The notes beneath the pieces were generated by a model. The model did not search any database, was not told the DNA's origin, and worked only from the letters and a program-made list of their open reading frames with translations. This document shows, piece by piece, positions 36,776 through 45,508 of a stretch of DNA of 64,000 nt. The position numbers were made by a program, and so were the translations under genes. Position 1 is the first letter of the stretch. Every line of letters starts with the position of its first letter. This stretch comes from Dehalococcoidia bacterium (GTDB lineage: Bacteria; Chloroflexota; Dehalococcoidia; UBA2979): assembly GCA_965219085.1 (NCBI GenBank), contig OZ244720.1, positions 1,760,001 to 1,824,000 on the forward strand, in the 5' to 3' direction.

Positions 36776-39393
36776 CCAAGCGGCCACTCGAGGGCGTACG
36801 CGTACTGGACTTCACGTGGGTGCGCGCCGGGCCGTGGGCCACGCGCTGGCTGTCCGTGATGGGCGCCGAGGTGATCAAGGTCGAATGGCCGGACCCGCGG
36901 CTCGCCTTCACGGGCCGCACGGGCAGCCTCGGCGACGCGAGCGCGGGCCCGAACTCGAACGGCCACTTCAACGACCAGAACGCCGAGAAGCTGAGCATCA
37001 CCATCAACGTGCGCAGCCCGAAGGGCCTGCAGATCATCAAGGACCTGCTGCGCTCGACGGACATCGTGATCGAGAACTTCAGCGCCGGCGTGCTGCGCGA
37101 CTGGGGCCTCTCCTTCGACGAGATGCGCGCGATCAAGCCCGACCTCATCTACGTCTCGATGGCCGGCTTCGGCCAGACGGGGCCGCACGCGCACTACACG
37201 ACGTTCGGACCCTCGGCGCAGGCGCTGTCTGGCCTGACGTTCCTGTCGGGGCTGCCCGACGCGCCGCCCGCCGGGTGGGGCTGGTCGTACATGGACGACA
37301 CCGGCGGCATGCACGGCGCGATTGCCGCGCTGACCGCGCTTCACCACAGGCGCGCCACCGGCGAGGGCCAGCACGTCGACCTCTCGCAGGTCGCGACCGG
37401 CATGACGCTGACCGGCCCGGCGCTCCTCGACCTCAGCGCCAACGGGCGGGGGTCGAGGCGATCCGGCTACCCGCCGGGCAACCGCACGCACTGGCCGGGC
37501 AGCGAGCTGCTCAACAACTACCGCGGCCGCCACGCAGCGCCGCACAACGCCTACCGCACCCTGGGCGATGGACACCACGACTGGGCCGTCATCGCCTGCT
37601 TCTCCGACGAGGAGTGGCGCACCCTCGTCGACGTCATGGGCTCGCCCGAGTGGGCGACCGCCCCGCAGTTCGACACGCTGCGGGGTCGCCTCGCGCACCA
37701 GCTCGAGATCGACGAGGGCATCGCCGCGTGGGCGGCGACCATCGAGAAGTACGAGCTGGCCGACCGCTGCCAGGCGGCAGGCGTGCGCGCCGCGCCGGTG
37801 CAGAGCAACCAGGACCGCGTCGAGCACGACCCGCAGCTGCGCCACCGGGGGATGTTCGAGCCGGTGCTGCATCCTGTCATCGGCGAGCACGCGATGCAGC
37901 AGGCGCCGTTCAAGCTCTCAGCGACGCCGGTGCCGGTGGAGACGGGGGGGCCGCTGCTCGGAGCGGACAACGTCCCGATCCTCGGCGGCATGCTCGGCAT
38001 GACGTGGGACGAGATCGCCGGCGGTTACGAGGACGGCACGCTCTGGCCCGCGGGCCAGCCGGTCGAGCGCTACCTGCTGGAGCCGCCGGCGCAGATGCCG
38101 CCACCGCACGTCGAGGATCCACTCCCACCGGTGACGGTCGAGCGTCGCCACTCCGGCGGCGCCCTCGGCGACCTGCGCGTGATCGAGATTGGGGGCGAGA
38201 TCGGCGAGTGGGCCGCGAAGCTCATGGCCGACCAGGGCGCCGACGTGATCAAGATCGAGCCTCCCCGCGGCTCAGCCGAGCGCGAGATCGGCCCGTTCTA
38301 CGAGGACGTGCCGGACGCCGAGCGCAGCCTCCACTTCTGGCACTACAACACCAGCAAGCGCGGTATCACCCTGGACGTGACGACCGAGGACGGCCGCGCC
38401 CTGTTCCGCCGCCTCGTCGCCAGCGCGGACGTGCTCATCGACTCGCTGCCGCTCGGCGAGCTCGACTCGCTCGGGCTCGGGTACGAGGCGCTGAGCGCCG
38501 GCAACCCGGGCCTCATCATGTGCTCGATCACGCCGTTCGGGCAGAGCGGGCCGTGGACCGGCTGGCGCACCTCGGACCTCATCCAGCTCGCCGTAGGCGG
38601 GCAGATGGGGGAGTGTGGCTACGACGAGGTGGACGTGCCCGGACGCCCGCCGATCGCGCCCGGCGGCGGCAACGCCTGGCACATCGGCAGTCACTACGCC
38701 TACATCGCGATCATGGGCGCGGTGTTCCACCGCGGCGTCACCGGCGAGGGCCAGTTCATCGACGCCTCCGTCCACGATGCCTGCGCGCTCACGACCGAGG
38801 GCGGCGTGACGGAGTGGATCTACGGTCGGACGGTGCGCCAGCGACAGACCGGCCGCCACGCGTCGTCGAGGCCCACGCCGCCCTCGCAGTACCGCTGCGC
38901 CGACGGCATCTACGTGAACACGCTGGCGTTCCCGCTGCTCATGAACCCGGCGGGCATCCGCCGCCTCGCCGAGTGGTTCGACGCGCACGGCCTCGCCGAC
39001 GACCTGCTCGACGACAAGTACGCCGACCCGGAGGTCATCGCGGCGAACGAGCAGCACGTGAAGGACGTGCTGCGCGAGTTCATCGCCTCGCAGCCCTCGG
39101 AGACCGTCTACCACGAGGGCCAGAACCGCGGCTTCTCGATGGGCCCGGTGCGCGCACCCGAGGAGGTGATGGCGGACCAGCACTTCCACGAGCGCGGCTT
39201 CTTCGTCGAGGTCGACCACCCCGACATCGGCCGCACGCTCACGTACCCGGGCGCGCAGGCCGTCTACGGCGCGTCGCCGTGGCGCATCCAGCGCCGCGCG
39301 CCGCACATCGGCGAGCACAACGCCGAGGTCTACGGCGACCTCGGCCTCTCCACGCTGGAGCTGGCGGCGCTGCGCGAGGGCGGGGTGCTGTAG
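36772..39393 (+). CDS. Fused two-domain class III CoA-transferase
   Basis: N-half contains YMDDTGG; C-half contains GADVIKIEPP/NTSKRG/SITPFG; ATGA overlap with the previous gene. Confidence 0.9.
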   Translation: MTKRPLEGVRVLDFTWVRAGPWATRWLSVMGAEVIKVEWPDPRLAFTGRTGSLGDASAGPNSNGHFNDQNAEKLSITINVRSPKGLQIIKDLLRSTDIVIENFSAGVLRDWGLSFDEMRAIKPDLIYVSMAGFGQTGPHAHYTTFGPSAQALSGLTFLSGLPDAPPAGWGWSYMDDTGGMHGAIAALTALHHRRATGEGQHVDLSQVATGMTLTGPALLDLSANGRGSRRSGYPPGNRTHWPGSELLNNYRGRHAAPHNAYRTLGDGHHDWAVIACFSDEEWRTLVDVMGSPEWATAPQFDTLRGRLAHQLEIDEGIAAWAATIEKYELADRCQAAGVRAAPVQSNQDRVEHDPQLRHRGMFEPVLHPVIGEHAMQQAPFKLSATPVPVETGGPLLGADNVPILGGMLGMTWDEIAGGYEDGTLWPAGQPVERYLLEPPAQMPPPHVEDPLPPVTVERRHSGGALGDLRVIEIGGEIGEWAAKLMADQGADVIKIEPPRGSAEREIGPFYEDVPDAERSLHFWHYNTSKRGITLDVTTEDGRALFRRLVASADVLIDSLPLGELDSLGLGYEALSAGNPGLIMCSITPFGQSGPWTGWRTSDLIQLAVGGQMGECGYDEVDVPGRPPIAPGGGNAWHIGSHYAYIAIMGAVFHRGVTGEGQFIDASVHDACALTTEGGVTEWIYGRTVRQRQTGRHASSRPTPPSQYRCADGIYVNTLAFPLLMNPAGIRRLAEWFDAHGLADDLLDDKYADPEVIAANEQHVKDVLREFIASQPSETVYHEGQNRGFSMGPVRAPEEVMADQHFHERGFFVEVDHPDIGRTLTYPGAQAVYGASPWRIQRRAPHIGEHNAEVYGDLGLSTLELAALREGGVL

Positions 39394-40050
39394 CAGGGTG
39401 CTGAAAAAGGCGCGGCCATCTGGCAGGATAGCGAAGGCGGCGGGGGCGTAGCCTGGGAGGCAGCCCCGTGCGAGGCGACGCTGAGCGTCAGACCAACATG
39501 TTGCTGGCGGTGACGCCGGACTCCTTCATCCCGGACGACCACCCGATCCGACGCATCAAGCCGATCGTCGATGCAGCGCTGCAGCGGCTCTCGCCGCTCT
39601 TCGGCACGATGTACGCAACGAGCGGGCGGCCCTCGATCCCGCCCGAGCACCTGCTCAAGGCGAGCCTGCTGATCGCGCTCTACTCGATCCGCAGCGAGCG
39701 CCAGTTCTGCGAGCGGCTGCGCTACGACCTGCTCTTCAAGTGGTTCTTGGACCTCAACATCTCAGACGCGCCGTTCGACGCCTCGAGCTTCTCGAAGAAC
39801 CGCGAGCGCCTGCTCGCAGCCGATGTCGCGCGCGCCTTCTTCGCCGAGGTGGTGGCCGAGGCAAAGCGCCGCCGGCTGCTCTCGGCCGAGCACTTCACGG
39901 TGGACGGGACGCTGCTCGAGGCGTGGGCGTCGCTCAAGAGATGGCATGAGGGCCGGTCTCTTCCTCAAGGGGGATACTCGCCCCCGAAACAGCGGCCTCG
40001 ATGGGCCAGAACGGCTCTTTGCGGAGCTTTGACGAGGTAGGAGACCGGCC

Positions 40051-41139
40051 GTGCAGCAGGATACCGCAACGACGTGGAGCATTGAGGGCAAGGAAGGGTC
40101 AGGGGTCACCATCGGCCTCGACGTGGGCGACCGCTACACCCACGTCCACGCCCTCGGCGCCGGCGGGGAGGTGGTACGTGAGAGGCGCGTCCGCACCACG
40201 ACGGCAGCGCTGGGCATGGTGCTGACCGGCCTCCCCCCATCGCGGGTCGTGATCGAGGCGGGGCCGCGCTCGCCGTGGCTGAGCCGCCTCATGGCGGACC
40301 TCGGCCACGAGGTGGTCGTCGCCAACCCGCGCCAGGTCGCGCTGATCGCCGGCAGCCAGCGCAAGACCGACCGGCTCGACGCCGAGTGGCTGGCGCGGCT
40401 GGGGCGCTTCGACCCCCAGTTGCTCGCCCCGATCCGCCACCGCAGCGAGGCGAGCCAGCACGACCTCGCCGTGGTGCGCGCCCGCGACGCGCTGGTGCGC
40501 TCGCGGACGCTGCTCATCAACCACGTGCGCGGGGCCGTCAAGGCCTGCGGAGCCGCGTTGCCGTCGTGCACGGCCGAGGCGTTCCACCGCAAGACGGCGG
40601 ACCACATCCCCGACGGGCTGCGCCCGGCGCTGCTGCCGCTGGTGGAGGCGATCGGCGAGCTGACCGCGCGCATCGCGGCGGCCGGCCGCGAGATCGAGGC
40701 GTTGTGCGAGGCTCACTCCGAGACCGCGGCGCTGCGCCAGGTCACGGGCGTCGGGCCGATCACCGCGCTCACGTTCGTGCTGACGATCGAGGATCCTGGG
40801 CGCTTCCCGAAGAACCGCGAGGTCGGCGCCTACCTCGGGCTCGTGCCGAGGCAGCGCGACTCGGGCGAGCGCACGCCGCAACTCGGCATCGGCAAGAGCG
40901 GCGATCCGCACCTGCGGCGGCTGCTGGTGCAGGCCGCGCACTACATCCTCGGCCCCTTCGGGCCCGACACCGACCTGCGCCGCTGGGGTGAGCGCTACAC
41001 CGCTACGGGGGCCGGTAACGCGAAGAAGCGCGCCGTCGTGGGCGTCGCGAGGCGGCTGGCGGTGCTGCTGCTCGCGCTGTGGAAGACCGGCGAGGTCTAC
41101 GAGCCGTTGCGCGACGCCGCGGCGCAGGAGGCCGCGTAG
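40051..41139 (+). CDS. IS110/IS1111 DEDD recombinase-transposase
   Basis: IGLDVG, VIEAG, KTDRLDA, GVGPITA, YLGLVP..DSG; RBS GGAG. Confidence 0.95.
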   Translation: MQQDTATTWSIEGKEGSGVTIGLDVGDRYTHVHALGAGGEVVRERRVRTTTAALGMVLTGLPPSRVVIEAGPRSPWLSRLMADLGHEVVVANPRQVALIAGSQRKTDRLDAEWLARLGRFDPQLLAPIRHRSEASQHDLAVVRARDALVRSRTLLINHVRGAVKACGAALPSCTAEAFHRKTADHIPDGLRPALLPLVEAIGELTARIAAAGREIEALCEAHSETAALRQVTGVGPITALTFVLTIEDPGRFPKNREVGAYLGLVPRQRDSGERTPQLGIGKSGDPHLRRLLVQAAHYILGPFGPDTDLRRWGERYTATGAGNAKKRAVVGVARRLAVLLLALWKTGEVYEPLRDAAAQEAA

Positions 41140-41222
41140 CAAGGCGCGGCGCCGAAGCAACCGACCAGGAGAGCGAGACTGAGACGGACCTGGGAGGAGG
41201 CCCAGCAAACCAACCACTGCAC

Positions 41223-41370
41223 GTGATGCCGGGCAACGGGCGACTGCGAGGCGGTAGCGGTCCAACAAGGACGTTCAAGAGTTGGCAGCGCCCCCTGGAA
41301 GCAGGATGTGCCTTCATGCACCGGGCCCGATACGTGGCCCATCAAAGAGTGCGGATAGAAGCTCGGCACA
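41223..41370 (+). ncRNA. Predicted seekRNA/bridge RNA of the IS1111-type element (bounds approximate)
   Basis: Target matches at 41250-41258 and 41272-41281; donor matches at 41339-41343 and 41355-41361; closing stem TGCCGGGC / GCTCGGCA. Confidence 0.75.
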
Positions 41371-41631
41371 GGCTCCGTCAGGGGACATCACGAGCGGATC
41401 GGCCCCGATGTCGAGGAGCGCCACGCCCCGAGGAGGAGGCCGCCACGTCGGCCTTGCAGAAAGACCGTCCCTCATAGAAGCTACCGCCCGCGCGACGAGC
41501 AGGAGCCACCCCTGGGCGGACGCAACCCGGATGTCGACTTCCGCGGGCGGCGGCGCAGCCGCGATACGCATAGTTCCGGCACGGACCCGGAGGCGCGGCT
41601 GTACACGAAGACACCCCAGGACGCTAAGGGG

Positions 41632-42855
41632 TCAAGCAGCGAGGTCCTCGTGGGTGTAACGGTGTCCCCAGGCGGTCGTCTCGTCGTAGGGCAAGCGGCG
41701 CTTCAGGCAGCCATGTAGGTAGCCGACGAGACGGTTGCCGAGGGCGCGGAGCGCCTGGTGGTGGAGGTCGCCCGCGGCGCGCCGCCGATCGTAGAACTCG
41801 CGGCAGCCGGGGCTGGCCTGCAGGGAGCACAGCGCCCACTGGTCGACTGCGTCGTAGAGGCGCCGGTTGCGGACGAAGCGGGCTTTCACGGTGTGCTTGC
41901 GGCCGGATGCTACCGTCAGCGGCGACGTGCCGGCGTAGTTCCTGCGGGACTTCGCCGACTCGTAGCGTTCGGGGTCATCCCCGAACTCGCCAAGCACCCG
42001 GGCGCCGAGGACCACGCCGAGACCGGGCAGGGAACGGTAGATACCGGCGTCCGGGTGCTGCTCAAAATGGCTCGCGAGCTCGGCCTCGAGCTCCTTGATC
42101 TGACGGTTGATCTCGCCGATCACCCTCATTGCCGCACTGGTGCTCGCGGCGAATGCCTTGCTCACCGCGGGCGGAGCCTCGAGCTGCGGTGAGCGCAGCG
42201 CGTCGCGGACCTCGGCGGCGCGCCGCTCGATGTTGCGCCGGCGGCCGCCGCGGCGCAGCGCGGAGCGGATCTGGGTGATGCTCAGCCGCGCCGCCTCGCG
42301 CGGGCCAGGCGCTGTCGCCAGCACGCCCACCGCGTCGTCGTGCGCGAGGTCGGGGAAGGCCTCCAGCGCACCCGGAAAGTACTCCCTGAGCGCGTTGCGC
42401 AGCCGGTTGGTCTGGCGGACGCGGTCCCAGATCAACTGCTGGTGGGCGCGGGCGAGGATGCGCACCGCGGCGGCTTCGTCGCTGTCGCCGGCGACCTCCC
42501 GGTGGTTGTGCCGGTCGGTGCGGACGAGGTCGGCGAGCAGCTTCGCGTCGCCGGCGTCGGACTTGGCGCCGCCGACGTGGTGGCGGTCGCGGTAACGCGA
42601 CGCCGAGCGCGGGTTGATGGCGTAGACGTGGTAGCCGGCCGCGAGCAGTGCCGCGACCCAGGGGCCGCGGTCCGTCTCGATGCCGACGATCACCTCACCC
42701 GGTCCTGAGGCGTACCCGGCGACCAGTCCGTGCAGGGCAGTGATGCCCTCCACCCCTTCGGGCAGACGCCGGGCGGCGAGCCGCTCGCCCGCGTCGTTCA
42801 TGAGATGGACGTCGTGGTGGTCTTCGGACCAGTCATCGCCCAGGTACAAGGCCAT
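41632..42855 (-). CDS. IS110 DEDD recombinase-transposase
   Basis: YLGDDWS, GIETD, KSDAGDA, LPGLG..GARVLGE, AGTSP..ASG. Confidence 0.95.
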   Translation of the reverse strand: MALYLGDDWSEDHHDVHLMNDAGERLAARRLPEGVEGITALHGLVAGYASGPGEVIVGIETDRGPWVAALLAAGYHVYAINPRSASRYRDRHHVGGAKSDAGDAKLLADLVRTDRHNHREVAGDSDEAAAVRILARAHQQLIWDRVRQTNRLRNALREYFPGALEAFPDLAHDDAVGVLATAPGPREAARLSITQIRSALRRGGRRRNIERRAAEVRDALRSPQLEAPPAVSKAFAASTSAAMRVIGEINRQIKELEAELASHFEQHPDAGIYRSLPGLGVVLGARVLGEFGDDPERYESAKSRRNYAGTSPLTVASGRKHTVKARFVRNRRLYDAVDQWALCSLQASPGCREFYDRRRAAGDLHHQALRALGNRLVGYLHGCLKRRLPYDETTAWGHRYTHEDLAA

Positions 42856-42899
42856 CGTGTTTCAGTTCCTCTCCCGCTTCGCGCTGCTCGGTGCGACCC

Positions 42900-43090
42900 G
42901 GCGGGTTGGTTCCTGCGACGGCCTAATGGATCAGTGCTCGATGGCACGACACCCCATGAGTGCTGCAGAACAACCCGGAATACCAGCAGGGGCTCGGTCT
43001 TCGTGAAGCGGTCCAGAAGCCGCAGGGATCAGCTGAGAGCTCACCGGCTGGGCAGGGTCCAGAACCAGTCTGCCAGAGAACCTCTGGCCG
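42900..43090 (-). ncRNA. Predicted bridge RNA of the second IS110 (bounds approximate)
   Basis: Left target guide 43032-43024, right target guide 43007-42999, left donor guide 42956-42948, right donor guide 42929-42923; each pair is separated by a short hairpin. Confidence 0.8.
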
Positions 43091-43541
43091 CTGGTCGGGC
43101 CCCATTAGGGGTCGGGGCAGACGGCGAAGCTCAGCTACATGGGCCATCTGCTCACCGAGAACCGTCACGGTCTGGTGCTGGACGTGGAGTTGACCGAGGC
43201 GAACGGGTACGCCGAGCGCGAGGCGGCGGTCACGATGCTGGAGCGCAGCGTGAGCGGCTGCGGGACGCTGGGCGCCGACCGCGGCTACGACACGCGCGGC
43301 TTCGTGGCGGCGCTGCGCGCTCGCGGCGTGACGCCGCACGTGGCGCAGCACGACCGCGGCCGCCGCAGCGCCGTGGATGGGCGCACCACGCGGCATCGCG
43401 GCTACAGGCAGAGTCAGAAGCGGCGCAAGATCGTGGAGCAGGTCTTCGGCTGGATGAAGACCGTGGGCGGCGGGCGCAAGCTGCGTTTCGTGGGCCGCGA
43501 GCGCAACCGCTGTTGGCTGGAGCTCACCGCCGCCGCCTACA

Positions 43542-45176
43542 CCCGAATCCACCGATCGAAGCTTGACGGGGCGGGATGCCGGGCTGCCGGAGAGTTCGGC
43601 GGGCGTGCCGGTGTTCGCGGGGCGGGCCGGAGCCAGGAGCGGTCGCTCAGCGCAGCTCGGGGGCGCTGAGGGCGCGGGCGCAAGGCGTGCGCGGGCATGC
43701 TGGCGCGAGCCTCGGAGGGGGGCCGGCGCTGTGAGCGGTCGTCAGGCCGGGAGCGGTAACGCCCGTAGTCGCGCGAGCGCGGCTGCCAGCTGCCCGGCCC
43801 AGGGCCAGCGCCTGGGGAGGTGCAGGGTCCAGCGCCGGGCCGAGTGGGTGAGCCGTCCGGCGAGGGCGAAATAGCGCCGCCTGAGCGTCCTGGTGGTGAC
43901 GATTCCCTCGCCGAGCCCGAGCCGCGCCGTCCAGCGGGCGAGGTGTGCGCGATCACCTGCACCGCGAGCCATGCCGCGTTCGCGGCGAAGCGGCCCGAGG
44001 GGAGATGGTTGAGCCCGACGCCGTACTTGAGGTCGCGGATCGCGTTCTCGATCTCGGCGTGACGGCGATGGTCGGTCTCGAGCTCCAGCAGCTCCCCCGC
44101 GCGGTCGCTGATGAAGGCGTGGTAGCTGTACGTCGCGAAGAGCGCGAGCTGTGAGCCGGGCGTCGGCTGGACGCGCCGCACGATGAGCCGCACCGGGGTG
44201 GCGTCCTTCGCGTGCCGGAACGGGGTGTAGGTCGTCTCGGCGACAGCGGCGCCGCCCGGCAGCCAGTACGGGATCGGCGTCCAGTCCGCTTCCGGGATCG
44301 CCTCGATCAGCGTGCGTACGTTCGGTTGCTGGCGAATCGTGACCGAGAAGCGGACATCCAGCGCGCGGCAGACGGCGACGACAGCGTGGTTGTAGAAGCC
44401 GCTGTCGGCGCGCACCGTGAGCTGCCCGCTCGCCCCGGCGTCGCGCACCCGCGCCACCGTCTCACGCAGGAAGTGGGCGGCGCCGCGGGCAGTGTTGGCG
44501 CGGCCCTCGCGCAGCCGCGCCATCAGCACGTCACCCGTCCCGGCCGCAACGGCGAGCAGCGGGTGGTAGCCGTGCACGCCCGTGTAGCCGTGGTGGCGGG
44601 CGCCCTCCTTGGCCAGGCCGTAGGTCTCACAGATCGTCGAGTCGAGGTCGATCGTGAACGGCGCCGCGCCGGGTCCCGCCCCGGCCGCCCATGCGCGGGC
44701 GAGCAATGCGCGGCTGAGGCGGTCGAGCTGGCGGACGTGGCCCCAGCGGAAGCTGCGCAGGAAGGTCCCGAGGGTGGACGGCGCCTTGACCGTGCAACCC
44801 AGCACGCTCGCCGTCCCGCCGGCGCGCAACGCATCGGCGTCGTCGATGCAGTCACCGCCCGCGAGCGCCGAGGCGATGAGGGTCAGCAGCTTGTCGCCGG
44901 CGTTCGCCCGGCCCGGCGCGTCACCGAGGTCGACGCAGCTGTCGGCGAGCTCTTGCAGACCGAGATGCTGGGCGAGCGTGGCCGGGAGCAGCAGGCCCGC
45001 GTGGTCCACGAGGCGGTCGTCATCGAAGGCGATGTCTATCCGGTCGGGGTCGCTCGTTGGTAGCATCGAATGGGTGCTCCCTGTGGCTGTGACGTGATTC
45101 GGCAAAACCCATTGTCCCAGCTACAGCGGAGCACCCAACCGCAGCCGCTCGCACGCCCTTCTTCGGTGGATCAAGG
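43542..45176 (-). mobile_element. IS1380-family element (1635 bp) with 5-bp TSD CTACA
   Basis: IRs CCCGAATCCACCGA / TCGGTGGATCAAGG; CTACA at 43537-43541 and 45177-45181. Confidence 0.9.
43742..45066 (-). pseudogene. IS1380 transposase with a 1-bp frameshift near 43944
   Basis: IDLDST, GYHPL, VRADSGF, AEIENAIRDLKYG; the expected IAHNLARW continues as LARWTARLG..RLRALPLPA in another frame. Confidence 0.85.
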
Positions 45177-45508
45177 CTACAACCTCGTGCGCATGGCCAC
45201 GCTCGAGACCGCCGCGGCGTAGGCGCAGTGCGCCCTCCGCCCCGCCAGGGAGCCCTCAGAGGCCCCCGGGGGCCGGTCAGGAGGCCACGATCACGAACCC
45301 GGAGGCGGCTTGAAGCCGCCTCTCGCCACTCCGAGACCCCGGAAGGCGCTTCTTCAGCACCCTGCTAGCTCCGCCTGGCACGCCCCGTGCCGCCGTCATG
45401 TGGGGGCTCGTCGTCCCCGTCGCCGAGGTCAGGCAACCTCGATCGACGGCGATGCCTCGCGGCACGAAGGTGCGGGGGATCCGTCGCTCGGCGGCGACCG
45501 GTGGCGCC

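What the first reader, a model, noticed from the sequence alone, without database searches (positions are those of the whole stretch)
39939..41478. IS1111-type element with a 3' seekRNA matching its insertion site beside the IS5 catalytic motif
Seen: the empty site is CGCTCAAG-AG-CTACCGCC, in the codons for ASLKSYR just after TVDGT. Downstream of the transposase, GGCGGTAGC (41250-41258) is the exact reverse complement of the right flank GCTACCGCC. CGTTCAAGAG (41272-41281) matches the left flank 9/10 (C>U) and lies essentially in the loop of a CCAAC/GTTGG stem. Further on, CCATC (41339-41343) and ATAGAAG (41355-41361) match the two sides of the predicted circle junction CATAGAAGATGG. Bottom-strand matches come before top-strand matches, the reverse of the neighbouring IS110. 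Established: IS1111-type elements have sub-terminal IRs and a downstream guide RNA. Inference: a second, architecturally different RNA-guided recombinase aimed at the same IS5 family.
Basis: partly seen in the sequence, partly recalled or inferred. Interest (0 to 1): 0.85.

Follow-up and report, generated by a model that had tools for sequence, protein, structure and literature searches.

The report
RNA-guided IS1111-type element inside IS5
This is a jumping gene of the known IS1111 type that carries, behind its transposase gene, a short guide RNA gene whose two loops spell out the exact spot inside another jumping gene (IS5) where it sits; it is a clear new example of a mechanism described in 2024, not a new mechanism.

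Summary
The core observation holds. Window 39939-41478 is a 1540-bp IS1111-type insertion sequence. It has a DEDD transposase, 13/14-bp subterminal inverted repeats with 7-bp and 3-bp terminal extensions, and a 339-bp 3' non-coding region. It splits codon S157 of an IS5-family transposase gene, 11 codons after TVDGT. Six exact empty sites, CGCTCAAG-AG-CTACCGCC, exist in the same genome.

The 3' region holds GGCGGTAGC (complementary to the right flank) and UUCAAGAG (equal to the left flank). They lie on the two sides of a conserved internal loop. Across 15 guide variants in related genomes these loops change together with the flanks. A match of 6 nt or more was found in 26 of 34 own pairings against 61 of 1042 foreign ones.

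The CCAAC/GTTGG stem is not conserved. CCATC is a chance-level match; UGCCUUC at 41309-41315 is the better left-end guide.

The order (top-strand-complementary guide first) and the architecture match published IS1111 seekRNAs. No RNA data could be obtained.

Verdict: a new member of a known kind. Useful extras are natural retargeting to IS5, IS1380, IS3 and IS256 elements, and copies sitting in a sister lineage's target.

The parts
39391..39938 (+). Left part of the host IS5-family element. Its transposase gene starts at 39468 and is cut within codon S157.
   Evidence: blastn to an intact IS5 copy; intact ORF of 358 aa matches NF033581, DUF772 and DDE_Tnp_1
39939..41478 (+). IS1111-type insertion sequence, 1540 bp. 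The core dinucleotide AG is counted at the left end; the boundary could equally be 39941-41480.
   Evidence: 5 near-identical and 6 diverged (85-88%) copies in the genome with the same ends; empty sites carry a single AG
39939..39945 (+). 7-bp left terminal extension AGATGGC (includes the core AG)
   Evidence: position relative to the IR; 7 bp left and 3 bp right is the IS1111 rule (PMC11187229)
39946..39959 (+). Left subterminal inverted repeat ATGAGGGCCGGTCT
   Evidence: the repeat finder I11, 14 nt, 93% complementary
40051..41139 (+). DEDD transposase/recombinase, 362 aa from GTG. Contains GLVPRQRDSG, which fits the GL-P----SG motif.
   Evidence: PF01548 1e-18, PF02371 3.8e-20; NF033542 3.1e-71; translation
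41224..41374 (+). Predicted seekRNA/bridge RNA core: target loop, small hairpin and donor-binding multiloop
   Evidence: covariance model R1, 161.4 bits; consensus fold; pair counts
41238..41293 (+). Target-binding module. Outer helix GGGCG-A-CUGC (41238-41247) pairs with GCAG-CGCCC (41285-41293). Inner hairpin GUCC..GGAC lies at 41260-41272.
   Evidence: RNAalifold; the inner hairpin has compensatory changes in L118 and L120
41250..41258 (+). Right-flank guide GGCGGUAGC on the 5' side of the internal loop. It is complementary to top-strand G|CTACCGCC.
   Evidence: exact reverse complement; changes with the right flank in 15 of 15 guide classes
41274..41281 (+). Left-flank guide UUCAAGAG on the 3' side of the internal loop. 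It equals top-strand TCAAG+AG.
   Evidence: changes with the left flank in 13 of 15 guide classes
41309..41315 (+). Candidate left-end donor guide UGCCUUC, 6 of 7 complementary to core G + ATGGCA
   Evidence: by eye: this loop reads CCCCAUC where the left end is ATGGG, and GUCCAUC where it is ATGGA. Suggestive only.
41318..41352 (+). Hairpin GCACC-GGGCC...GGCCC...G-GUGC inside the donor-binding multiloop
   Evidence: 4 of the 5 GGGCC/GGCCC pairs show compensatory changes
41355..41361 (+). Right-end donor guide AUAGAAG, identical to the right end plus core
   Evidence: relatives whose right end is CATGGAAG carry AUGGAAG here
41454..41459 (+). TTGCAG, a weak -35-like hexamer. It lies 17 nt upstream of the hexamer GAAG|AT that would form only at a circle junction.
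   Evidence: read by eye; no promoter-like site in the linear element; L120 has TTGACC 18 nt upstream of the same hexamer. Inference.
41462..41475 (+). Right subterminal inverted repeat AGACCGTCCCTCAT
41476..41478 (+). 3-bp right terminal extension AGA
41479..41610 (+). Middle piece of the host IS5; begins with the core AG and CTACCGCC
41611..43106 (-). Neighbouring IS110-type element. Its ORF is 41632-42855 on the minus strand; its long non-coding region (42856-43106) lies upstream of the gene. It sits at a fixed second site of IS5.
   Evidence: same junction in L054 and L057

Best explanation
Window 39939-41478 is an autonomous insertion sequence of the IS1111 type. Its DEDD recombinase is guided by an RNA transcribed from the 3' non-coding region (core about 41224-41374). 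One internal loop of that RNA reads both strands of the target around a central AG. Its 5' side (GGCGGUAGC) pairs with the top strand of the right half-site. Its 3' side (UUCAAGAG) pairs with the bottom strand of the left half-site. A second, multiloop region (UGCCUUC and AUAGAAG) reads the element's own joined ends. The element therefore inserts, in one orientation and without target duplication, at CGCTCAAG-AG-CTACCGCC inside the IS5-family transposase gene, 11 codons after the probable first catalytic Asp. Shown here: the anatomy, the empty and filled sites, the conserved RNA scaffold, and the joint change of loops and flanks. Inferred from published family members: that the region is made into an RNA bound by the recombinase, that a circular intermediate forms, and that the circle junction makes a promoter.
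For: Family and anatomy.
- Protein domains PF01548 and PF02371 and NF033542 'IS110 family RNA-guided transposase' at 3.1e-71.
- Subterminal IR with 13 of 14 matches at 39946-39959 and 41462-41475, with 7-bp and 3-bp extensions as defined for IS1111 in PMC11187229.
- GLVPRQRDSG motif.

Empty and filled sites.
- 6 exact and 2 one-mismatch empty sites lie in IS5 copies of the same genome.
- 6 occupied IS5 copies sit at different chromosomal places, all in the same orientation.

Guides and flanks.
- The two guide strings occur together once in the window and in 0 of 100 shuffles.
- Within the genome, four guide classes sit at four different sites, and each matches its own flanks. L006/L007: CACCCACU with AG|TGGGTG. 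L008: CGAGCUGCU with AG|CAGCTCG. L010: CAGGCUGCU with AG|CAGCCTG.
- I examined 56 copies from 7 genomes; 48 had both ends, giving 34 distinct guide/flank combinations. The longest right-guide match was 6 nt or more in 26 of 34 own pairings against 61 of 1042 foreign pairings. For the left guide it was 22 of 34 against 24 of 1046.
- 15 of 15 guide classes have at least one copy with a right match of 6 nt or more; 13 of 15 do for the left.
- A 52%-identical homologue in an Acidobacteriota MAG (L120) keeps the scaffold, the AG core and a 7-nt left-flank match.

RNA scaffold.
- RNAalifold gives 31 pairs.
- On 22 distinct sequences, 98.1% of cells pair against 35-45% when partners are slid. 7 of 31 pairs show compensatory changes, reached by 0 of 500 shuffles.

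Donor guides.
- Relatives with right end CATGGAAG have AUGGAAG in the loop.

Order of guides.
- The top-strand-complementary guide comes first, as in ISEc11, ISPa11 and ISKpn4 (PMC11187229 section 9).
Against: - No RNA evidence. The one metatranscriptome that held any of the stretch was low-depth contigs only.
- The single-sequence fold is not clearly more stable than shuffles: z = -1.46, and 15 of 200 shuffles fold as well.
- The two main helices (the outer target helix and GCACC/GUGC) never vary, so they carry no covariation evidence. The alignment used for the pair counts was fitted to the model.
- 8 of 34 combinations have right-guide matches under 6 nt. L009, L024, L039 and L074 sit in sites that fit another lineage's guides, not their own.
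- The sequences are close kin, so the counts overstate independence.
- The left-end donor guide is only 6 of 7 complementary. Its joint change with the left end fails in the L069, L073 and L026 group.
- The junction promoter is weak (3 of 6 in each hexamer) and was read by eye.
Confidence: 0.88

Rival explanations
1. The element belongs to the IS110 group proper, some of whose members also have a 3' non-coding region, and not to the IS1111 clade. The mechanism would still be RNA-guided, but the family label would be wrong.
For: PMC11187229 (section 6) notes IS110-family members with a downstream non-coding region. The NCBIfam and Pfam models do not separate the two groups. I built no tree with reference transposases, because the script machine was lost. 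The ORF is 362 aa from GTG, slightly above the 330-350 aa quoted for IS1111.
Against: The 14-bp subterminal IR with the exact 7/3-bp extensions, the GL-P----SG motif and the order of the guides are all IS1111 traits. The profile match starts at residue 20, which leaves about 343 aa.
Confidence: 0.07
2. The flank-like strings in the 3' region are DNA relics, such as captured target fragments from imprecise excision or end duplication, or protein-read DNA motifs. On this view they are not RNA guides.
For: Several copies do carry tandem partial duplications of their 3' end (L007, L008, L010, L048), so the region is recombinogenic. No RNA has been seen.
Against: The strings sit at fixed positions inside a conserved, structured scaffold, one on each strand. 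They are 8-10 nt long and change together with the flanks in 15 guide classes. The same layout was shown experimentally to be an RNA guide in family members (PMC11187229, PMC11208160). Relics would not keep a reverse-complement right half and a direct left half separated by a hairpin.
Confidence: 0.03
3. The matches are chance in a 70% G+C genome.
For: The single 9-mer is not rare: 3 sites against 0.95 expected. CCATC occurs 103 times in the window.
Against: The joint pattern appears in 0 of 100 shuffles. Own pairings far exceed foreign pairings. Predicted right flanks of L008 and L010 were found only after looking past the duplicated ends.
Confidence: 0.01

Closest known systems
ISEc11, ISPa11, ISKpn4 and ISPst6 (IS1111 family; seekRNA shown experimentally; Siddiquee et al. 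2024, PMC11187229; sections 6, 9, 12, 13, 14 and passages read)
   Same: DEDD transposase, subterminal IRs with 7/3-bp extensions, guide RNA gene downstream of tnp, top-strand-complementary guide 5' of the bottom-strand-complementary guide, guide matches that overlap at the insertion point, and no target duplication.
   Different: Very distant protein: the best plasmid-borne relatives are 32-36% identical. The host is a Dehalococcoidia-type MAG lineage, and the target is an IS5-family transposase gene. The RNA is not demonstrated here.
[quoted passage not shown]
   Same: An RNA-guided IS whose chosen site is a conserved coding motif of another IS's transposase.
   Different: ISEc21 has its guide RNA upstream and the opposite guide order. 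Here the site lies 11 codons after the probable first Asp of an IS5-family enzyme.
IS621 bridge RNA (Durrant et al. 2024, PMC11208160, passages read; PDB 8wt6)
   Same: A two-part RNA, with one loop reading both strands of the target and another reading the joined IS ends around a shared core dinucleotide.
   Different: Only weak C-terminal similarity (E 6.4e-7). The RNA is at the 3' end. The donor-binding bases lie in a multiloop rather than a simple internal loop, as Durrant et al. noted for many IS1111 elements. The core is AG.
IS4321 and IS5075 (IS1111 family; target the terminal IRs of Tn21-family transposons; Partridge and Hall 2003, seen only in a reference list, text not held)
   Same: IS1111-type elements that live inside other mobile elements.
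   Different: They target transposon ends, not a transposase coding motif.
ISPpu9 and ssr9 modular transposition (PMC12288879, abstract read)
   Same: The 3' RNA module can occur as extra copies separate from the transposase gene. Compare the extra 3'-end modules after L010, L007, L008 and L048.
   Different: Here the extra modules are tandem and directly behind a full element. No solo module was found elsewhere in this genome (13 R1 hits, all at the 11 elements or in the L010 array).

Membership tests
IS1111 family (IS110 superfamily) | DEDD (RuvC-like) N-terminal domain plus PF02371 C-terminal domain | tested here: met
   PF01548 1e-18 and PF02371 3.8e-20; NF033542 3.1e-71
IS1111 family (IS110 superfamily) | Subterminal inverted repeats, usually 11-13 bp, perfect or near-perfect | tested here: met
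   14 nt with 13 matches, 39946-39959 and 41462-41475; kept in relatives down to 52% protein identity
IS1111 family (IS110 superfamily) | Asymmetric terminal extensions: 7 bp left, 3 bp right | tested here: met
   AGATGGC (39939-39945) and AGA (41476-41478), given the single AG in the empty sites; rule quoted
IS1111 family (IS110 superfamily) | Longer non-coding region downstream of tnp | tested here: met
   339 bp downstream (41140-41478) against 112 bp upstream (39939-40050)
IS1111 family (IS110 superfamily) | Guide complementary to the top strand lies 5' of the guide complementary to the bottom strand | tested here: met
   41250-41258 then 41274-41281; rule in PMC11187229 section 9
IS1111 family (IS110 superfamily) | Site- and orientation-specific insertion without target duplication | tested here: met
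   Empty site has one AG; 6 occupied IS5 copies are all in the same orientation
IS1111 family (IS110 superfamily) | C-terminal GL-P----S(t)G motif | tested here: met
   GLVPRQRDSG in the translation; motif quoted
IS1111 family (IS110 superfamily) | Transposase groups with IS1111 over its full length in a phylogeny | not tested
   No reference IS1111 or IS110 sequences were at hand, and the script machine was lost
IS1111 family (IS110 superfamily) | RNA from the non-coding region co-purifies with the transposase and is required for transposition | not testable with these tools
   Needs experiment; the only RNA run held next to nothing of the region
IS1111 family (IS110 superfamily) | Circular intermediate with abutted ends that creates a promoter | tested here: inconclusive
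   No go-back joint from right end to left end among the joints listed (contigs only). TTGCAG-17 nt-GAAG|AT is weak and was read by eye. No promoter in the linear form.
IS621-type bridge RNA | Target loop and donor loop are both simple internal loops, 5' of the recombinase gene | tested here: not met
   The RNA is 3' of the gene and the donor-binding bases lie in a multiloop. It works like a bridge RNA but is not of the IS621 type.

The most novel reading that the evidence does not exclude
This Dehalococcoidia lineage of IS1111-type elements lives almost entirely inside other transposable elements. It changes host element by rewriting two loops of about 9 nt in its guide RNA: in this one genome the four guide classes sit in IS5, IS1380, IS3 and IS256 elements. 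Its guide RNAs also act in trans between sister lineages. On this reading an element's position is sometimes set by a neighbour's guide, as in L024 and L039, which are identical over their whole length to copies at their own site yet sit in the co-resident 74% lineage's target. Tandem duplication of the guide module (L010, L118, L120) would be the raw material for new specificities.
Probability: 0.3. Interest if true: 0.55.

Novelty: new member of a known kind. Interest (0 to 1): 0.35.

Why it matters
The mechanism itself, seekRNA or bridge RNA guidance in IS110/IS1111 elements, has been in print since 2024. The family model in NCBIfam is already named 'RNA-guided transposase'.

The locus adds a natural retargeting series for the less studied IS1111 architecture. 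It comprises 15 guide classes on one conserved scaffold, each with known filled sites and, for this class, eight empty sites in the same genome. That is direct material for working out the pairing rules (length, register, tolerated wobble, AG core) and the donor-binding multiloop of IS1111-type RNAs.

It also shows two unrelated RNA-guided recombinases independently colonising the same IS5. All four occupancy states are present: neither, either one, or both. Finally, it offers candidate natural cases of guidance by a sister lineage's RNA.

Tried and rejected
RNA evidence. The look-up of sequencing runs gave one metatranscriptome with a 0.05 share of words. Laid, it gave low-depth contigs only, with none over 41107-41374, so expression remains untested either way. 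A 1540-bp skip (39938 to 41479) appears in contigs of two runs. It is uninformative, because empty IS5 copies exist in the genome anyway. No right-end-to-left-end circle joint was among the joints listed.

Covariance model beyond the family. R1 was searched in 150 other genomes drawn evenly from the class, and only the window's own genome matched (1 of 151). The model is narrow (effective sequence number 1.29). The more distant homologue L120 was reached through the protein instead.

Other searches.
- Rfam has no family for this RNA. The only window hit is Ms_AS-4, inside the neighbouring element.
- Plasmid collection: nothing above 36% identity.
- PDB: only weak C-terminal matches to ISCro4 and IS621.
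- Single-sequence fold: z = -1.46, not informative.
- Promoter and terminator scan of the linear element: none found.

Rejected readings.
- I considered that L009 refutes guidance, because its guides do not fit its IS5 site. I rejected this because L009 is a mosaic. From about alignment column 300 to the right end it is 100% identical to L006/L007, while the first 260 bp or so differ. That pattern fits gene conversion.
- Whether L001, L002 and L003 are independent hits or one composite IS5 moved in trans could not be settled.

Partridge and Hall 2003 is not held. Supplementary figures of PMC11187229 (folds, target logos) were not seen and may bear on how close the fold is to published seekRNAs. 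Literature search for this particular case used. I saw no paper describing an IS1111-type element aimed at an IS5-family gene, but three keyword searches do not show that none exists.
Full report
WHAT IS THERE. The window is 70% G+C. Between 39939 and 41478 lies a 1540-bp element. It has one long ORF (40051-41139, + strand, 362 aa from GTG). The ORF carries the DEDD_Tnp_IS110 and Transposase_20 domains and matches NCBIfam NF033542, 'IS110 family RNA-guided transposase', at 3.1e-71. Its translation contains GLVPRQRDSG, which fits the GL-P----S(t)G motif quoted for IS1111 transposases (PMC11187229 section 6).

The ends carry a 14-nt inverted repeat with 13 matches, at 39946-39959 and 41462-41475. 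This leaves 7 bp (AGATGGC) beyond it on the left and 3 bp (AGA) on the right. That is exactly the asymmetric extension given as the IS1111 rule. The non-coding region is 112 bp upstream of the gene and 339 bp downstream.

THE SITE. The element interrupts an IS5-family transposase gene. An intact copy elsewhere in the genome is 358 aa and matches NF033581, DUF772 and DDE_Tnp_1. The break falls within codon S157 of ...HFTVDGTLLEAWASLKS|YR, 11 codons after D146. That D146 is the first catalytic Asp is my inference from the usual position of this motif behind DUF772; I did not test it.

The predicted empty site CGCTCAAGAGCTACCGCC occurs 6 times exactly and twice with one mismatch in the genome, all inside IS5 copies. 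It contains a single AG, so there is no target duplication and AG is the shared core.

Six IS5 copies are occupied (L001-L005 and L009), all in the same orientation. Their IS5 hosts lie at six different chromosomal places.

THE GUIDE MATCHES. GGCGGTAGC followed within 8-20 nt by TTCAAGAG occurs once in the window and in none of 100 shuffles. The 9-mer alone would not be remarkable.

The decisive test is variation. The genome holds 5 near-identical copies and 6 copies that are 85-88% identical. The diverged copies sit at other sites, and their two loop segments differ in exactly the way their flanks differ:
- L006/L007 have CACCCACU and GGCAGAG, at GGGCAG-AG-TGGGTG.
- L008 has CGAGCUGCU and CCACCAG, at CCCACC-AG-CAGCTCG.
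- L010 has CAGGCUGCU and CCGCAUAG, at CCCGCAT-AG-CAGCCTG.

For L008 and L010 I predicted the right flank from the loop. I then found it only behind tandem duplicated right ends.

Relatives from five other genomes of the same genus and one further genus added more classes. Of 56 copies examined, 48 had both ends, giving 34 distinct guide/flank combinations in 15 guide classes.
- The longest right-guide match was 6 nt or more in 26 of 34 own pairings against 61 of 1042 foreign pairings.
- The longest left-guide match was 6 nt or more in 22 of 34 against 24 of 1046.
- Some of the high foreign scores come from different lineages that share a target.

These copies are kin, so the counts overstate independence. 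Even so, every one of the 15 classes has at least one copy whose right flank fits.

A homologue only 52% identical in protein, in an Acidobacteriota MAG (L120), has the same scaffold, the same AG core, the same end sequences and a 7-nt left-flank match.

THE RNA FOLD. RNAalifold on 17 variants gives this layout:
- an outer helix GCCG/CGGC that closes a multiloop;
- a target module in which GGGCG-A-CUGC pairs with GCAG-CGCCC and a GUCC/GGAC hairpin sits inside, leaving the two guides on opposite sides of an internal loop;
- a small CCUG/CAGG hairpin;
- a GCACC-GGGCC...GGCCC...G-GUGC hairpin flanked by single-stranded AUGUGCCUUCAU and GGAUAGAAGCU.

A covariance model built from this (R1) finds the region at 41224-41374 with 161 bits. 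On 22 distinct sequences, including L099, L118 and L120, 98.1% of cells pair against 35-45% when the partners are slid. Seven of 31 pairs show compensatory changes, which 0 of 500 shuffles reach.

There are caveats. That alignment was fitted to the model. The two largest helices never vary. The single-sequence fold is not significantly stable (z = -1.46).

DONOR RECOGNITION. AUAGAAG (41355-41361) equals the right end plus core. In the 69%-identity group the right end is CATGGAAG and the loop reads AUGGAAG. This is one joint change, probably a single event.

It occurs 103 times in the window.

The single-stranded stretch 5' of the hairpin is a better candidate. UGCCUUC (41309-41315) is 6 of 7 complementary to G+ATGGCA. 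It reads CCCCAUC where the left end is ATGGG, and GUCCAUC where it is ATGGA. The fit fails at the fifth position in the L069, L073 and L026 group, so I call it suggestive. Donor bases in a multiloop are what Durrant et al. describe for many IS1111 elements (PMC11208160).

COMPARISON WITH THE LITERATURE. Siddiquee et al. showed for four IS1111 members that a 3'-encoded seekRNA co-purifies with the transposase and is needed for transposition. It contains a top-strand-complementary segment 5' of a bottom-strand-complementary one, with the reverse order in the IS110-type ISEc21. The present element has the IS1111 order.

By eye, the neighbouring IS110-type element has the opposite order in its upstream non-coding region: GGACCCU, then a hairpin, then CACGAAG.

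ISEc21 targets the second-D codons of IS3 transposases, so an IS aimed at another IS's catalytic region has a precedent. The element is therefore a new member of a known kind.

I did not see the RNA and did not build the tree that would fix the clade.

THE TWO RECOMBINASES ON ONE IS5. The window's IS5 copy (39391-45372) is broken three times: by this element, by an IS110-type element at 41611-43106, and by an IS1380-type element at 43542-45176.

The two DEDD proteins share only 29% identity over 161 residues. The IS110-type element sits at the identical IS5 position in L054 and L057, whose IS1111 site is empty. L004 has the IS1111-type insert but reads through the IS110 site. Six IS5 copies have neither. 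Both elements thus hit IS5 independently and site-specifically.

EXCEPTIONS AND WHAT THEY SUGGEST.
- L009 sits in an IS5 site but carries L006-type guides. It is a mosaic, 100% identical to L006/L007 from about alignment column 300 to the right end and different before that. This fits gene conversion.
- L024 and L039 (genome G017) are identical over their whole length to L047 and L081, which sit in the fitting site. Yet L024 and L039 lie in the site that fits the guides of a co-resident lineage with a 74%-identical protein. This could be guidance in trans by the sister RNA, or half-matched off-target insertion of the kind reported for IS621 (bioRxiv 10.64898/2026.08.31.748434, abstract read). 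I cannot decide between these.
- L074 is another mosaic in a foreign site.

WIDER PATTERN IN THIS GENOME. All four guide classes lie in other insertion sequences:
- an IS5 gene;
- an IS1380-family gene near its C-terminus (NF033539, 1.3e-89);
- an IS3-family gene at ...EYNTKRPH| (NF033516, 2.8e-52);
- about 70 bp behind an IS256-family gene (NF033543, 4.6e-51).

VERDICT. The kind is known. Interest is moderate, mainly as a natural retargeting series for the IS1111 architecture.

Noticed in passing
window 41611-43106 (- strand); L054:1640 onward; L057:1643 onward: An IS110-type element (407-aa DEDD protein, 251-nt upstream non-coding region) sits at one fixed position of IS5 (...CTGTACACGAAG|ACACCCCAGG...). 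It is found in the window copy and in two IS5 copies whose IS1111 site is empty. Candidate guides GGACCCU and CACGAAG flank a hairpin in its upstream region.
   Followed up: partly
window 43542-45176 (ORF 43537-45105, - strand): A third insert in the same IS5 copy: an IS1380-like element (DDE_Tnp_1_4, 5.5e-45). The same IS family is itself the target of the L006/L007-type variant of the IS1111-type element.
   Followed up: partly
window 41950-42031 (+): Rfam Ms_AS-4 (an Actinobacteria sRNA) scores 63.9 bits, above its gathering score. It lies inside the IS110-type transposase gene and antisense to it.
   Followed up: no
L004:3026-3937 and the matching stretch of L005 (G000, about 1972909 and 1859038): Two copies of the IS1111-type element carry an ORF-less group II intron of about 910 bp on the opposite strand (RF02003 95 bits, RF00029 45 bits). 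It is inserted inside the right inverted repeat (GCAGAAAG|...|ACCGTCCC). This gives an intron inside an IS inside an IS5.
   Followed up: partly
L010:3031-3765; L007:3016-3074; L008:3038-3113; L048 (three right ends): Tandem partial copies of the element's 3' end follow the first right end. In L010 there are four extra right ends and a second complete guide-RNA module. Every junction joins ...CATAGAAG to sequence that follows an internal AG of the 3' region. This would fit self-insertion at pseudo-sites followed by deletion, or half-matched recombination.
   Followed up: partly
L120:2574-2696 and 2750-2917; L118:2580-2731 and 2823-2962: Two distant homologues carry two tandem copies of the guide module. 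In L120 the copies differ by one base in each guide. This is a possible route to new target specificities.
   Followed up: no
L021, L029, L045, L022, L072 (left junction): In these copies the left end lacks its first bases and reads ...CCAGTTAGCCGGGCGCTC|TGGCATGAG. The same CCAGTTAGCCGGGCGCTCTGG string occurs uninterrupted next to L073. It may be another element's terminus abutting or inserted into the left end. Unexplained.
   Followed up: no
window 39912-39929 and 41485-41502: The IS5 sequence on the two sides of the insertion site forms an 18-nt inverted repeat (83% complementary), so the empty target could form a hairpin around the core. This may be chance in G+C-rich coding DNA.
   Followed up: no
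window 41282-41287 and the same columns in relatives (alignment A2): Directly after the left-flank guide and the core AG, the RNA reads xUGGCA (AUGGCA in several variants). This resembles the element's left end ATGGCA. It might pair with the left end after strand exchange, as the handshake bases of IS621 do (recalled, not checked in a paper). It might instead only reflect the conserved helix.
   Followed up: no
L005 / L044 (G000, about 1859038): This copy has the IS5 left flank, but its right flank (AG|TGACCGCTGCGG) is not IS5. This suggests a rearrangement between copies.
   Followed up: no
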